In this document: piece after piece, positions 1,557-13,738 of the stretch
Layout: each line of letters opens with the position of its first letter
Position numbering within the stretch: position 1 is the first letter of the stretch
Assembly: GCF_006345805.1 (NCBI RefSeq)
Contig: NW_021825983.1
Location: forward strand, 1 to 13,981
From: Octopus sinensis
Lineage: Eukaryota
Length of the DNA: 13,981 bases
Direction of reading: 5' to 3'
Position numbers and translations under genes: made by a program
Notes under the pieces: generated by a model
Database searches by the model: none
What the model was told of the DNA's origin: nothing
What the model saw: the letters and a program-made list of their open reading frames with translations, nothing else

Positions 1557-1640
1557 TTTTCTACTCTAGGCACAAGGGCCGAAATTTTTGGGAAGGGGGC
1601 CAGTCGATTAGATCGACCCCAGCACGCAACTGGTACTTAA
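1557..1640 (-). mobile_element. SINE family A 3' portion (variant tail), inverted relative to the adjacent copy
   Basis: ctactctaggcacaagg...ctggtacttaa is a diverged reverse complement of ~1768-1850. Confidence 0.85.
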
Positions 1641-1850
1641 GGCGGCGAGCTGGCAGAAACGTTAGCACGCCGGGCGAAATGCGTAGCCGTATTTCGTCTG
1701 CCGTTACGTTCAGGGTTCAAATTCCGCCGAGGTCGACTTTGTCTTTCATCCTTTCGGGGTCGATAAATTAAGTACCAGTTGTGTACTGGGCTCCATCCAA
1801 TCAACTGGTCCCCTTCCCCAAAATGTCGGGCCTTGTGCCTAGAGTAGAAA
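1640..1850 (+). mobile_element. SINE family A, full-length, variant tail ending ccttgtgcctagagtagaaa
   Basis: Head aggcggcgagctggcagaaacgttagc (A-box-like), B-box-like ggttcaaattcc, central gaggtcgacttt..tttcatcctttcggggtcgataaattaagtaccagtt shared with many copies in the window. Confidence 0.88.
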
Positions 1851-1867
1851 TTCATATTGAGGTTAGG

Positions 1868-2288
1868 AAGGCGAGCTGGCAGAAGCGTTAGCACGCCGGG
1901 CGAAATGCGTAGCCGTATTTCGTCTGCCGTTACGTTCTGAGTTCAAATTCCGCCGAGGTCGACTTTGCCTTTCATGCTTTCGGGGTCGATAAATTAAGTA
2001 CCAGTTACGCACTGCGGTCGATATAATCGACTTAATACCTGTGTCAGTCCTTGTTTGTCCCCCTCTATGTTTAGCCCCTTGTGGGCAGTAAAGAAATAGG
2101 TATTTCGTCTGCCGTTACGTTCTGAGTTCAAATTCCGCCGAGGTCGACTTTGCCTTTCATCCTTTCGGGGTCGTCGATAAATTAAGTACCAGTTGCGCAC
2201 TGGGGTCGATGTAATCGACTTAATCTGTTTGTCTGTCCTTGTTTGTCCTCTCTGTGTTTAGCCCCTTGTGGGTAGTAAAGAAATAGGT
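1868..2288 (+). mobile_element. SINE family A: one full copy (1868-2100) plus a head-less tandem unit (2101-2288)
   Basis: Same head, B box and centre; tail tgtccttgtttgtcc..tttagccccttgtggg..aaagaaatag; the second unit restarts at tatttcgtctgcc. Confidence 0.9.
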
Positions 2289-2427
2289 ACTTAATTTATT
2301 GACCCAGAAAGGATGAAAGGCAAAGACGACCTCGGCAGAATTTGAACTCAGAACGTAACAGCAGACAAAATACCTATTTCTTTACTACCCACAAGGGGCT
2401 AAACACAGAGAGGACAAACAAGGACAG
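2287..2427 (-). mobile_element. Inverted partial SINE family A spanning a tail/head junction
   Basis: ggtacttaatttat..aaaggatgaaaggcaaag..tttgaactcagaacgtaac..aatacctatttctttactacccacaaggggctaaacacagagaggacaaacaaggacag is the reverse complement of the family A multimer. Confidence 0.9.
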
Positions 2428-2460
2428 CAACAAATAAAGAGTATATATATATATATATAA

Positions 2461-6080: not shown

Positions 6081-6145
6081 TCCACCACCACCACCACCAC
6101 CACCACCACCCCACCACCACCACCACCACCACCACCCCACCACCA
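6081..6145. repeat. (CCA)n microsatellite
   Basis: Directly visible. Confidence 0.95.
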
Positions 6146-6463
6146 TGTCTTTCATCCATTCGGGGTCGATAAATTAAGTACAAGTTACGCACTGGGGTCG
6201 ATATAATCGACTTAATCTGTTTGTCTGTCCTTGTTTGTCCCCTCTGTGTTTAGCCCCTTGTGGGTAGTAAAGAAATAGGTATTTCGTCTGCCGTTACGTT
6301 CTGAGTTCAAATTCCGCCGAGGTTGACTTTGCCTTTCATCCTTTCGGGGTCGATAAATTAAGTACCAGTTACGCACTGGGGTCGATGTAATCGACTGAAT
6401 CCCTTTGTCTGTCCTTGCTTGTCCCCTCTATGTTTAGCCCCTTGTGGGTAGTAAAGAAATAGG
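6146..6463 (+). mobile_element. SINE family A head-less tandem units (partial plus one ~184-bp unit)
   Basis: Family A centre and tail occur twice, joined at gaaataggtatttc (6272-6285). Confidence 0.9.
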
Positions 6464-6559
6464 TAGCGGTGAGATTGTTCGTGATAGTGGCGGCCTCGAA
6501 GTTGGCGGCGGGGGCAGCAGCGGCGTTTGTAGTAGTGCTGGTCGTACAGGTAGTGGCGA

Positions 6560-7882: not shown

Positions 7883-8942
7883 GGCCGCTGCGAGCTGGCA
7901 GAACCGTTAGCAACGCCGGGCGAAATGCTTAGCGGTATTCCGTATTTCCTCTGCTGCTACGTTCTGAGTTCAAATTCGGCCGAGGTCGACTTTGCCTTTC
8001 ATCCTTTCGGGGTCGATTAAATAAGTACCAGTTACGCACTGGGGTCGATATAATCGACTTAATCCGTTCGTCTGTCCTTGTTTGTCCCCTCTGTGTTTAG
8101 CCCCTTGTGGGTAATAAAGAAATAGAAATAGGTATTTCATATGCCGCTACGTTCTGAGTTCAAATTCCGTCGAGGTCCACTTTGCCTTTCATCCTTTCGG
8201 GGTCGATAAATTAAGTACCAGTTACGCACTGGGGTCGATGTAATCGACTTAATACCTATGTCTGTCCTTGTTTGTCCCCTCTGTGTTTAGTCCCTTGTGG
8301 GCAATAAAGAAATAAGTATTTCGTCTGCAGTTATGTTCTGAGTACAAATTCCGTCGAGGTCGACTTTGCCTTTCATTCTTTCGGGGTCGATTAAATAAGT
8401 GGGTTGCAAAGAAATAGGTATTTCACCTGCCGTTACGTTCTGAGTTCAAATTCCGCCGAGTTCGACTTTGCCTTTCATCCTTTCGGGGTCGATTAAATAA
8501 GTACCAGTTACGCACTGGGGTCGATGTAATCCACTTAATTCGTTTGTCTGTCCTTGTTTGTCCCCTCTGTGTTTAGCCCCTTGTGGGTCGCAAAGAAATA
8601 GGTATTTCGTCTACCGCTACGTTCTGAGTTCAAATTCCGTCGAGGTCGACTTTGCCTTTCATCCTTTCGGGGGTCGATTAAATAAGTACCAGTTACGCAC
8701 TGGGGTCGATATAATCGACTTAATCCATTTGTCTGTCCTTGTTTGTCCCCTCTGTGATAACCCCTTGTAGGCAATAAAGAAATAGGTATTTCGTCTGCCG
8801 CTACGTTCTGAGTTCAAATTCCGCCGAGGTCGACTTTGCCTTTCATTCTTTCGGATCGATTCCATAAGTACCAGTTACGCACTGGGGTCGATATAATCGA
8901 CTTAATCCGTTTGTTTGTCCTTGTTTGTCCTCTTTGTGTTTA
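7883..8942 (+). mobile_element. SINE family A multimer: one headed copy plus five head-less tandem units (184-bp period, one internally deleted, last truncated)
   Basis: Junction gaaata(g/a)gtatttc at 8125, 8309, 8411, 8595 and 8779 (spacings 184, 102, 184, 184). Confidence 0.93.
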
Positions 8943-9341
8943 GAAAAGAATCCGCACGGACAATCTACAGGAGAGGTGGGCAGAAATACAGATGCAGTAT
9001 TGTCTAAGGAAGAGGGATTTCCTAAGTAAGAGACCGAAACACTTATCTGTTGTGACAGGCGGGACCGGATTAAGACCCATCAAGGCCCTAAGCACATAAT
9101 AGATTTTGGTGCCCCCCCCCCCTGAAAGATTATGTAATTCAAAATATAAACAATAACAAAAACCATAAAATAAATTTTTATTTTTCAAAATGAAACGAAA
9201 CAGTAAATAAACATTATTTAAATATAAATAAAAATAATTAAAAAATATAATCAATATAAATAAAAATATAAATAAAAATAAATAAAAATAAAAAATAAAA
9301 ATATAAATAAGTAGGAGGAAGCTTATTTATATTTGAAAAGT

Positions 9342-10156
9342 TTCCTCCTACTTTTTTGAATTGCAAAGTCTTTGACCTCAGAATTAATCTCAGGTAACAC
9401 ATCTGCGTCTATACTTAGTAGAGATAAAGGCATCCCGAATATTATTTTAGCGGGTTTAAAGTGATATCTTTTGTGCCATAAACCATTTACCATTTCTGTG
9501 GTACCCCCTTCCTTCCCTTGATGCCCTAAGCACGTGCTTATTCTGCCTAATTCCTCCTACTTTTTTGAATTGCAAAGTCTTTGATCGGATCCTCAGAATT
9601 AATCTCAGGTAACACATCTGCGTCTATACTTAGTAGAGATAAAGGCATCCCGAATATTATTTTAGCGGGTTTAAAGTGATATCTTTTGTGCCATAAACCA
9701 TTTACCATTTCTGTGGTACCCCCTTCCTTCCCTTGATGCCCTAAGCACGTGCTTATTCTGCCTAATTCCTCCTACTTTTTTGAATTGCAAAGTCTTTGAT
9801 CGGATCCTCAGAATTAATCTCAGGTAACACATCTGCATCTATACTTAGTAGAGATAAAAGCATCCCGAATATTATTTTAGCGGTTTTAAAGTGATTTCTT
9901 TTGTGCCATAAACCATTTACCATTTCTGTGGTGCCCCCCTCCTTCCTTTGATGCCCTAAGCACATGCTTATTCTACCTAATTCCCCCTACTTTTTTGAAT
10001 TGCAAAGTCTTTGATCGGATCCTCAGAATTAATCTCAGGTAAACACATCTGCGTCTATACTTAGTAGAGATAAAGGCATCCCGAATAATATTTTAGCGGG
10101 TTTAAAGTGATTTCTTTTGTGCCATAAACCATTTACCATTTCTATGGTACCCCCTT
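9342..10156. repeat. 215-bp tandem repeat, ~3.8 copies
   Basis: Units start at 9342 (209 bp, lacks tcggat), 9551, 9766 and 9981 with ttcc(t/c)cctacttttttgaattgcaaagtc; very few substitutions between units. Confidence 0.96.
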
Positions 10157-11481: not shown

Positions 11482-11487
<6 letters not shown>

Positions 11488-11945
11488 TTTAGTGAAGGGA
11501 AGAAATGGAGCTGAACGAAGATTCTACAAAATTCCTTTTTATTATTTTCTACACATGTTTTCAAAGGCCATTCATACCATGGGCTCCTAGGGAGCGTTTT
11601 GTTCGAGAAGCATGCTGCGCATTTGTTTGGATATTTAAATTCCTGGATTTTCCTGAAGAGAAAGCTGCAAAATGGTCTCCTTATTCAATCCGAATATGGG
11701 AATTTGCAGCCTTTGAAACATGTGTAGAAAATAATAAAAAGGAATTTTGTAGAATCTTCGTTCAGCTCCATTTCTTCCCTTCACTAAATATATAAAACTT
11801 CAATTATCCGCGCCAAGGCACGGTTGCGACACCCCATGGTGGTAACCTCAACCGTGTCTTTTCTGGTGTGATTTTTGCTACCCAGGTTTCGGTTAAATTT
11901 TGAATAATCCGTGACAAGATAATTCATTTATCCATTTCAATAAAA
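11482..11945 (+). mobile_element. Penelope-like (PLE) terminal fragment: inverted arm plus hammerhead-bearing end, flanked by (TA)n
   Basis: Arms 11482-11568 and 11709-11794 are reverse complements with one indel; hammerhead at 11648-11731; AATAAA at 11939-11944. The PLE assignment is inferred from architecture; no RT or GIY-YIG coding sequence is seen. Confidence 0.65.
11648..11731 (+). ncRNA. Type I hammerhead ribozyme motif (long stem II)
   Basis: Stem I UUUUC(11648-52)/GAAAA(11727-31); CUGAAGA 11653-59; stem II GAAAGCUGCAAA(11660-71)/UUUGCAGCCUUU(11703-14), 11 of 12 paired; GAAA 11715-18; stem III ACA-UG-UGU; cleavage triplet GUA with predicted cut 3' of 11726. Confidence 0.8.
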
Positions 11946-11973: not shown

Positions 11974-12090
11974 ATACTAAGTAATAAGGGTTTAGCAACG
12001 ATTTTGCCTCACCACACACCGAATTTAGAAATAGCAGAAATTCGGTGTGTGGTGAGGCAAATCGTTGCTAAACCCTTAATTACTTAGTAT
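11974..12090. repeat. Palindrome, 53-bp arms (two 1-nt indels), 11-nt spacer
   Basis: atactaagtaataagggtttagcaacgattttgcctcaccacacaccgaattt (11974-12026) is mirrored at 12038-12090. Confidence 0.93.
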
Positions 12091-12178
12091 TACTTAAACC
12101 TTCCTTGAATGGGGCTTTTACATGCCGAACTCTACTTGGTGAAATTAATGATTATTTCTAAATTAATTAATTTCACCC

Positions 12179-12180
<2 letters not shown>

Positions 12181-12718: not shown

Positions 12719-13276
12719 CCTTAATCCTTAAAAATGTGTTAGCCCGAAGGCCGCGGCCATGCTGGGGCACCACCGCTGAATGAGCTACACTAATATGTGA
12801 ATCCACCTCTGATACGTGGCACTTGATCAACAAGGGAGTTCGATGCTGCTGCCCGCATCTGTGTCTCCTGTCGTGAGGTAGGTTCATCTGGGACCCCCGA
12901 GAAGAAGAGATCCAGTTTAGTTTTAAAGAAACCCACACCATGTAAGTCTCTCAGGCATTTAGGGAGGATGTTAAAGAGCTGTGGTCCTCTGAAACCCAAG
13001 CTGTTGCAGTATCTGGACCTGTATTTTGATGATGATGTTGGAATCCTTGGCACCATGCAGTGGCGCCCCGGTCTGCGATTGGGGTAACTTTGAATGCCAA
13101 AGTTTGGGACAAGACCCTCCAGGATTTTCCAGATGTATATCACCGCACATCTCTCTCCCGCCTCCGCTCTAGGGAGAAGAGGTTTAATACTTTCAGTCTT
13201 TCCCAGTAGCTGATATTTTGCATTGAGACGATCTTCTTTGTGTAGCTTCTCTCAATTGCTTTGAGTTCTGCTGTTA

Positions 13277-13280: not shown

Positions 13281-13340
<60 letters not shown>
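13281..13340. repeat. (TA)n microsatellite
   Basis: Perfect run. Confidence 0.98.
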
Positions 13341-13342
<2 letters not shown>

Positions 13343-13444
13343 GGAGTAAACACATAAATGTGAAACAAGGTGGAAAAAAGAGTACTCAAATACCAGTGGT
13401 AGAGTAATATGCTTTATTTAAAGCAGCAGAAAATTCAACAAAAT

Positions 13445-13482
13445 CTGTTACTCTGAGTTTCTCGTTGCCGTTCATCAGACAG
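13445..13482 (-). ncRNA. Minimal type I hammerhead ribozyme motif (inverted copy)
   Basis: Reverse complement is CUGU-CUGAUGA-ACGGCAACGA-GAAA-CUCAGAG-UA-ACAG, identical to 13499-13536. Confidence 0.78.
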
Positions 13483-13498
13483 TTTTTTGCTAGAAAAA

Positions 13499-13536
13499 CT
13501 GTCTGATGAACGGCAACGAGAAACTCAGAGTAACAG
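13499..13536 (+). ncRNA. Minimal type I hammerhead ribozyme motif
   Basis: Stem I CUGU/ACAG; CUGAUGA 13503-09; stem II CG-GCAA-CG with an A.A mismatch at the closing pair; GAAA 13520-23; self-complementary stem III ACUC-A-GAGU; GUA triplet with predicted cut 3' of 13532. Confidence 0.78.
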
Positions 13537-13568
13537 ATTTTGTTGAATTTTCTGCTGCTTTAAATAAG

Positions 13569-13738
13569 TATATATATATATATATTATATATATATATAT
13601 ATATTATATATATAATATATATATACTATATATTATACTTTCTATGTATGTATTTTATGTTTGTTTTCTCCTTTGTGCTCATATATGAGTGTGTGTGTAT
13701 TAGTAAGCTTGTGTGTGTGTGTGTGTGTGTATTTGTGT
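13569..13738. repeat. (TA)n then degenerate (TG)n low-complexity region
   Basis: Directly visible. Confidence 0.85.

What the first reader, a model, noticed from the sequence alone, without database searches (positions are those of the whole stretch)
13414..13567. Two identical minimal hammerhead ribozymes back-to-back in a perfect 154-bp palindrome
Seen: 74-bp perfect arms, each with a complete 38-nt type I hammerhead core (CUGAUGA..GAAA..GUA), a GNRA-capped mini stem II and a self-complementary stem III (ACUCAGAGU). Established: minimal type I hammerheads with palindromic stem/loop III occur at Penelope-like element termini and are proposed to cleave as dimers. Inference: this is a PLE-derived or retrozyme-like non-autonomous insertion in (TA)n. 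Transcription in either direction would yield one ribozyme plus its exact antisense, i.e. a self-inhibiting hairpin or dsRNA source. Both arms share an A.A mismatch at the stem II closing pair, so this copy may be weak or dead.
Basis: partly seen in the sequence, partly recalled or inferred. Interest (0 to 1): 0.75.

Follow-up and report, generated by a model that had tools for sequence, protein, structure and literature searches.

The report
Back-to-back Penelope retrotransposon stubs
The palindrome is real but common: it is one of at least 519 short back-to-back stubs of a Penelope-type jumping gene in this genome, likely made when both ends of a cut TA repeat copied the front end of the element's RNA, and its two predicted self-cutting ribozymes would be shut off by the hairpin they form.

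Summary
In detail: two identical 74-bp arms, each with a 38-nt type I hammerhead motif, inside (TA)n. It is not a unique device or a retrozyme. It is a 228-bp, doubly 5'-truncated head-to-head insertion of an autonomous Hydra-clade Penelope-like element (RT + GIY-YIG, 3.4-kb unit). The genome holds at least 2,604 exact arms and 519 tight palindromes.

A census of 75 loci shows strict rules. Arms end at one of two fixed sites, with one of each in 33 of 35 pairs. Their 5' ends pile up against a boundary 17 nt upstream of the ribozyme core. The two arms of a copy share alleles (29 of 29). This fits two cDNAs primed from both target ends that run off a fixed RNA 5' end and join by microhomology (inferred; the start site is not mapped).

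The A·A pair is the subfamily norm (110 of 114 arms), not damage to this copy. Related hammerheads have U·U there. Cleavage is untested and likely weak. The layout is in print, and this scan has noted similar insertions on other octopus DNA. Interest is modest.

The parts
13281..13340 (.). (TA)n target, left half
   Evidence: TRF period 2, 30 copies, 100%
13341..13495 (-). 'Tail' arm: element sense strand, from near the inferred RNA 5' end through the hammerhead to the distal fixed end (+137 from C3, ...TACTCCGG)
   Evidence: 100% match to unlinked copies; collinear with the leader of full unit L037
13341..13411 (-). 71-nt 'tail' between the two fixed ends, present on one arm only
   Evidence: End sites +66 and +137; 63 proximal and 46 tail ends among 114 arms
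13445..13482 (-). Type I hammerhead motif, copy 1 (predicted cut after 13449)
   Evidence: Sequence
13488..13495 (.). Head-to-head junction: spacer TGCTAG plus a 2-nt overlap shared by both arms; a recurrent junction type
13494..13568 (+). 'Proximal' arm: element sense strand from -9 through the hammerhead to the proximal fixed end (+66; AAATAAG here, AAATAAAG in the family)
13499..13536 (+). Type I hammerhead motif, copy 2 (A10.1 = 13510, A11.1 = 13519, predicted cut after A13532)
13569..13637 (.). (TA)n target, right half
   Evidence: TRF

Best explanation
This is a 228-bp head-to-head insertion made of two truncated ends of a high-copy Hydra-clade Penelope-like retrotransposon, likely produced when both ends of a cut (TA)n repeat primed reverse transcription on the element's RNA. 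Shown: the parent element, the two fixed 3' ends, one of each per pair, the 5' boundary at -17, and allele sharing between arms. Inferred: the GIY-YIG nuclease cuts both strands of (TA)n. One end primes at +66 and the other at +137 of the leader. Both cDNAs run to the RNA's 5' end, likely a transcription start at the A of an initiator-like CCATTCT (motif recalled). Their free 3' ends anneal through 1-6 nt of microhomology, often the self-complementary CTAG, and are repaired into a palindrome. The hammerhead is a passenger from the element's 5' leader. In this copy the antisense arm is transcribed first on either strand, so the ribozyme would be trapped in a 74-bp hairpin. The copy is likely a neutral dead end.
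For: Parent: L032 has a 723-aa stop-free frame whose model (pLDDT 92.8) hits TERT first (E 2.5e-9). L037 holds a 3,381-bp HHR-to-HHR unit with ATG at +205. Counts: 2,604 exact arms; 519 tight pairs with varied junctions. Census of 75 of the 77 loci behind the first 100 rows (114 arms): 33 of 35 divergent pairs are proximal + tail, 2 are proximal + other, none are same-type. 5' ends: 64 at -17..0, 13 at -18..-100, 37 beyond -100. At the boundary: 32 at -17..-13 against 1 at -22..-18 (p 8e-9). Single-ribozyme loci show the same pile-up (11 of 18 ends within 100 nt; p 5e-5), and 12 of 30 loci ending at -17 join straight to (TA)n. The boundary therefore does not need a fold-back partner. Arms agree at a T/A site in 29 of 29 informative pairs (chance 0.54 each). 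In 23 tight pairs the tail arm is longer in 8, the proximal arm in 8, and they are equal in 7. In vitro, a PLE protein cuts and extends both strands and starts at two internal sites that match the 'tail' (Frangieh 2024).
Against: The RNA 5' end is not mapped; the -17 boundary is the only evidence for it. One of 24 tight pairs among the first 30 loci is discordant at the T/A site (L008). Allele sharing could also come from gene conversion between arms or from subfamilies active at different times. The census needs an intact ribozyme with U4 and covers the first 99 Mb of one contig, so truncations inside +1..+137 are under-sampled. Ends scored beyond -100 mean only 'reads on'. The window's own junction, taken alone, also fits a snap-back of one cDNA. 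A non-native G before -17 (13 of 30 loci) would fit cap copying, but 12 of the 13 are fold-back joints where the partner arm can supply the G: inconclusive.
Confidence: 0.72

Rival explanations
1. Self-priming or snap-back: one cDNA (or an antisense template, as Arkhipova et al. 2013 proposed) folds back near CTAG and copies itself, giving the inverted arm.
For: It explains the identical arms directly. The window's junction (T6-GCTAG-A5 on +) is what a tail-primed cDNA snapping back AA onto TT would give. It is proposed in print for PLE palindromes (PMC3846280, passages).
Against: The proximal arm reaches further upstream as often as the tail arm (8 v 8 of 23). A proximal cDNA cannot template the tail. 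A frequent junction is a spacer-less GCTAGC, which suits two strands annealing. 25 of 38 single-ribozyme loci end at the proximal site, so that site acts on its own.
Confidence: 0.15
2. A non-autonomous MITE- or retrozyme-like family in which the whole palindrome is the unit that spreads.
For: Some junctions recur exactly: 14 of 23 parsed top hits share one, and GCTAG|ATTC recurs. Copies are young: 81 of 114 arms are identical over 57 nt.
Against: The top hits were chosen by likeness to this copy. An unselected list shows many junction types. The same junctions occur in the T and A allele groups and in the U4C sister subfamily, with both arms carrying the group's alleles. Arm spacing runs from about 20 bp to 4 kb with the same end rule. 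Retrozymes are tandem, same-strand repeats (bioRxiv 10.64898/2026.07.22.740005).
Confidence: 0.08
3. The -17 boundary comes from RT stalling or microhomology at CTAG/ATT, not from an RNA 5' end; the rest of the model stands.
For: CTAG is self-complementary and ATT can pair with (TA)n, so both favour joints here. 37 of 114 arms pass the site.
Against: A better TA match lies about 12-17 nt further upstream (ATATAT), yet only 13 ends fall in -18..-100. The drop at -17/-18 is abrupt (32 v 1). Arms that pass the site are expected from priming at the downstream pLTR.
Confidence: 0.2
4. A host-selected regulatory hairpin (dsRNA, small-RNA or editing substrate) at this locus.
For: A perfect 74-bp stem would be a good dsRNA substrate.
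Against: It is one of hundreds of like copies. It sits beside a LINE fragment in a 14-kb repeat-only contig, with no host exon evident among 35 frames of 90 aa or more (read by eye). The perfect arms are explained by youth.
Confidence: 0.04

Closest known systems
Hydra clade of C-terminal EN+ Penelope-like elements (Craig et al. 2021, PMC8557442; section 11, passages and supplement rows seen)
   Same: RWK, DKT, CxCX5C linker, CxxC and CxH motifs, C-terminal GIY-YIG, (TA)n target, hammerhead in the pLTR. Hydra-2_aMil has the same stem I (ctgt/acag), stem III (actc-N-gagt) and cleavage base.
   Different: It is not Hydra-1_Obim, whose hammerhead differs; our motifs had 0 hits in that supplement. 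The unit is 3.4 kb (clade 'generally <3 kb'). The tail is 71 nt against the usual 30-40.
Inverted 5'-truncated pLTR plus one-sided 'tail' layout of PLE insertions (Craig 2021 Fig. 2 legend; Arkhipova 2013 PMC3846280; Schostak 2008 PMC2377424; passages)
   Same: Head-to-head copies, a tail on one end only, palindromes at the junction. Cervera and de la Pena 2014 already note dual min-HHRs on opposite strands about 100-700 bp apart.
   Different: Here both arms stop at one sharp boundary 17 nt before the core, giving hundreds of about 230-bp minimal palindromes. I did not find that boundary described in my searches.
Minimal type I hammerheads of metazoan PLEs (Cervera and de la Pena 2014, PMC4209133; parts 1-2 of 4 read)
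   Same: Type I topology, 4-bp stem I, palindromic stem/loop III suited to dimers; low activity expected.
   Different: A 2-bp stem II closed by A·A, where the consensus has a long stem II with G10.1-C11.1. The two motifs are on opposite strands, so they cannot form the tandem dimer in one RNA.
Poseidon element of Anolis, in vitro (Frangieh et al. 2024, PMC11167929; parts 1-2 of 4 read)
   Same: Both target strands are cut and extended, two internal start sites bound the tail, and hammerhead cleavage is not needed for insertion.
   Different: Different clade. There the ORF starts inside the ribozyme; here the ATG lies 205 nt after C3, beyond both start sites.
Non-LTR retrozymes (bioRxiv 10.64898/2026.07.22.740005; part 1 of 5 read)
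   Same: Type I hammerhead, PLE origin.
   Different: Retrozymes are head-to-tail tandem units with same-strand ribozymes. This is a single head-to-head stub.

Membership tests
Hydra-clade PLE (parent element) | Single ORF with telomerase-like RT | tested here: met
   723-aa frame; model's top PDB hit TERT 3du5, E 2.5e-9. Pfam and PDB sequence searches found nothing.
Hydra-clade PLE (parent element) | C-terminal GIY-YIG endonuclease without CCHH | tested here: met
   [quoted passage not shown] GIY-YIG clusters among Atlas hits; homolog P0003 carries PF01541. No direct profile hit on P0001 itself.
Hydra-clade PLE (parent element) | RWK, DKT, CxCX5C linker, CxxC and CxH motifs | tested here: met
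   RLRWKA, NSDKTR, CNCKSESSC, CKLC, CRH in P0001, against section 11
Hydra-clade PLE (parent element) | Insertion into (TA)n | tested here: met
   Flanks of this copy and of nearly all census arms
Hydra-clade PLE (parent element) | Placement in the clade by RT phylogeny | not tested
   Reference Hydra proteins were not held as tool sequences; assignment rests on motifs
PLE insertion layout | pLTR-ORF-pLTR tandem, inverted 5'-truncated copy, tail on one end | tested here: met
   L037, L031 tandem; L032, L033, L035 inverted; 33 of 35 pairs have one tail
Type I hammerhead ribozyme | Core C3-A9, G12-A14, A15.1-U16.1, H17 and three stems | tested here: met
   In 16 non-family loci, stem I (not fixed by the search pattern) paired at 49 of 64 positions.
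Type I hammerhead ribozyme | Watson-Crick pair 10.1-11.1 | tested here: not met
   A·A in this subfamily. T·T in 10 of 16 related loci and in 10 of 19 Hydra-clade rows seen in File S2. A·G, A·U or A·C in the sister subfamily.
Type I hammerhead ribozyme | Self-cleavage | not testable with these tools
   The active monomer fold is predicted 4.9 kcal/mol above the minimum (0.7 v -4.2)
Non-LTR retrozyme | Head-to-tail tandem units, each with a same-strand hammerhead | tested here: not met
   Two arms on opposite strands, no tandem repeat at the locus

The most novel reading that the evidence does not exclude
These minimal palindromes are 'strong-stop' products: the PLE protein primes both target ends on the 5' leader of one capped RNA and runs off its start. 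Hundreds of copies would then map the transcription start (-17) and both RT start sites (+66, +137) to the base. They would also show how PLEs make inverted pLTRs without self-priming or an antisense template, which is an open question in the PLE literature.
Probability: 0.55. Interest if true: 0.55.

Novelty: new member of a known kind. Interest (0 to 1): 0.3.

Why it matters
As a locus it is ordinary. As a family it gives base-level predictions for an unsolved step of PLE mobility, the origin of head-to-head repeats, that can be tested with the existing in vitro PLE assay and 5'-end mapping. It also gives a natural series of 10.1·11.1 and U4 variants (A·A; U·U; U4C with A·G, A·U or A·C), two of them in subfamilies that each spread to over a thousand arms. 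That series can test whether PLE hammerheads need to cleave at all.

Tried and rejected
Rfam scan: no hammerhead model matched; the miRNA hits reflect the hairpin only. Pfam and PDB sequence searches on P0001 gave 0 hits.

Expression: no RNA holder listed. All eight runs laid were contigs. Their depth step near -17 was not used, because contig depth cannot show a start and the short insertions themselves would make such a step.

Cap-G signature at -17: inconclusive. Splicing of the leader (lead from e1-9957499): arms are collinear with the unit from -17 to +137, so no intron loss was seen in this family. A second, type III-like hammerhead cutting near -17 was considered by eye and rejected: there are no matching stems.

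Covariation inside the family cannot be tested, because copies are nearly identical. U4/A11.1 versus C4/G11.1 looks like a Watson-Crick swap, but it is one lineage event and U or C also occur at 11.1. A free-energy dimer fold of two arms paired stem III across molecules but did not give the full active fold. The scan look-up by sequence found nothing. My first exact patterns missed the U4C sister subfamily, so those counts are lower bounds. Supplements of the papers other than Craig 2021 were not opened (that of the bioRxiv preprint is closed); they could list this family or its ribozyme.

Full report
Observation. The arms 13414-13487 and 13494-13567 are exact reverse complements around a 6-nt spacer, TGCTAG. 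Each holds a 38-nt type I hammerhead motif: 13499-13536 on + and 13482-13445 on -. It has stem I CTGT/ACAG, core CUGAUGA, A10.1·A11.1, a 2-bp stem II with a GCAA loop, GAA, stem III ACTC-A-GAGT, and a predicted cut after A13532. The insert is 13341-13568, between two (TA)n tracts; the left arm runs on past the palindrome. Rfam hammerhead models did not match at E<=10. The window is a whole 13,981-bp contig of a 2.72-Gb assembly. It is full of repeats, and I saw no host exon among 35 long frames. Earlier scan notes on the same genome call it octopus; I did not check that.

What it belongs to. An exact 35-nt ribozyme pattern matches 2,604 times, against 0 for the control. Tight head-to-head pairs number 519, with many junction types. 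Longer copies lead to an ORF. L032 has a 723-aa stop-free frame. L037 has a 3,381-bp unit from ribozyme to ribozyme, with ATG 205 nt after C3, so the ribozyme lies in the 5' leader. The protein has no Pfam or PDB sequence hit but 2,091 homologs among 7,993 scored. Its model (92 sequences, pLDDT 92.8) matches TERT first. It carries RWK, DKT, CxCX5C, CxxC and CxH, the marks of the Hydra clade (Craig 2021, section 11). The published octopus member Hydra-1_Obim has another ribozyme, so this is a separate family.

End rules. I fetched 75 of the 77 loci behind the first 100 rows and found 114 arms. 3' ends: 63 at +66 (AATAAAG), 46 at +137 (TACTCCGG), 4 elsewhere, 1 reading on into the ORF. Of 35 divergent pairs, 33 join one proximal and one tail arm, and none join two alike. 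5' ends: 64 at -17..0, 13 at -18..-100, 37 beyond. At the boundary, 32 lie at -17..-13 against 1 at -22..-18. Single-ribozyme loci show the same pile-up (11 of 18 within 100 nt). Genome-wide, 145 arms stop exactly at -17 under a pattern that sees only part of them. Of the first 30, 12 join (TA)n directly, 16 join a partner arm and 2 join other sequence. Arms agree at a T/A polymorphism in 29 of 29 informative census pairs and in 23 of 24 tight pairs among the first 30 loci. In 23 tight pairs either arm can be the longer (8, 8, 7 equal). Caveat: the census needs an intact U4 ribozyme and covers part of one contig.

Mechanism. A PLE protein cuts and extends both target strands and starts at two internal sites that bound the 'tail' (Frangieh 2024, parts 1-2 read). 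I infer that here one target end primes at +66, the other at +137, and both cDNAs run off an RNA 5' end at -17. That position is the A of CCATTCT, which fits an initiator consensus (recalled). In Drosophila Penelope the start also lies shortly before the ribozyme (Schostak 2008 passages; Cervera 2014). The cDNA ends then join by short microhomology, often CTAG. The published rival is self-priming (Arkhipova 2013 passages). It fits this copy's junction but not the symmetry of arm lengths, the spacer-less GCTAGC junctions or the solo proximal arms. The start site itself is unmapped, and a possible cap-G trace is inconclusive.

The ribozyme. A11.1 is present in 110 of 114 arms, so A·A is the subfamily state. 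An older sister family, whose nuclease is 39% identical, keeps the core and stems I and III but has T·T at that pair in 10 of 16 loci. Its stem I, not fixed by my pattern, pairs at 49 of 64 positions. Ten of 19 Hydra-clade rows seen in Craig's File S2 have U·U, and Hydra-2_aMil shares our stems I and III with a G-C pair. A sister subfamily of at least 1,244 arms has U4C, with G, U or C at 11.1 and A in 3 of the first 100. It follows the same end rules in the 20 loci read. Perreault 2011 (passages) states that U·U is the best-tolerated mispair and that U4C lowers activity. Weak cleavage is therefore plausible for the whole family, but nothing marks this copy as decayed. The active monomer fold is predicted 4.9 kcal/mol above the minimum, and the whole insert folds into a hairpin of about -135 kcal/mol. 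On either strand the antisense arm is made first, so read-through RNA would trap the ribozyme. The two motifs are on opposite strands and cannot form the tandem dimer in one RNA.

Artefact check. Fold-back loose ends (...CAGTTTTTG before CTAG) appear in contigs of X15, X16 and X19, which come from three organism labels and two studies; X15 could be the assembly's source. The layout is therefore real as a class. This locus was not spanned with reads.

Novelty. The head-to-head layout, the one-sided tail and opposite-strand hammerhead pairs are in print. Four paper searches did not turn up a fixed 5' boundary or this family; the library lacks most subscription journals. This scan has noted like insertions on other octopus DNA, including the two-start-point reading. 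I had set down my own reading before seeing them. Verdict: a new family of a known clade, an ordinary locus, and a useful mechanistic footprint. Interest 0.3.

Noticed in passing
window 11482-11794 (ribozyme 11648-11731, +): A second head-to-head insertion in (TA)n, with 79-nt perfect arms 155 nt apart. It carries a complete type I hammerhead motif with a long stem II (CUGAAGA, 55-nt insert, stem III ACAUGU, stem I TTTTC/GAAAA). Rfam missed it. The inverted arm stops inside the ribozyme.
   Followed up: partly
window 11976-12179: A third head-to-head stub of another high-copy family (1,269 candidates), also with one short arm and one tailed arm and two fixed ends. It has a hammerhead-like but non-canonical stretch (GUGGUGAG GCAA..UUGC UAAAC) shared by the copies read. 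No parent ORF was found in 20 loci.
   Followed up: partly
G000, e.g. L176-L192: Sister subfamily of at least 1,244 arms with U4C (CCGAUGA or CCGACGA) and G, U or C at 11.1: a core variant that spread widely.
   Followed up: partly
L107-L109, L113, L114, L118-L124: An older sister Hydra family with a U·U-closed mini stem II and the same AATAAA proximal end; several copies abut (CA)n or (TG)n instead of (TA)n.
   Followed up: partly
L115: Another hammerhead family also forms a tight head-to-head palindrome (152 bp, 79% matched).
   Followed up: no
L025, L082, L096, L186: A minor second junction hot spot near -40, at the near-palindromic CAGAGTCTG.
   Followed up: no
window 12790-13251 (-): LINE fragment (C-terminal end of an RT ORF, 153 aa frame) next to the left (TA)n; a similar frame flanks L032.
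   Followed up: no
window 1637-2430, 6087-6470, 7890-8975; 9342-10156: Tandem and inverted copies of a roughly 185-bp SINE-like unit, and a 215-bp tandem array with 3.8 copies at 96%.
   Followed up: no
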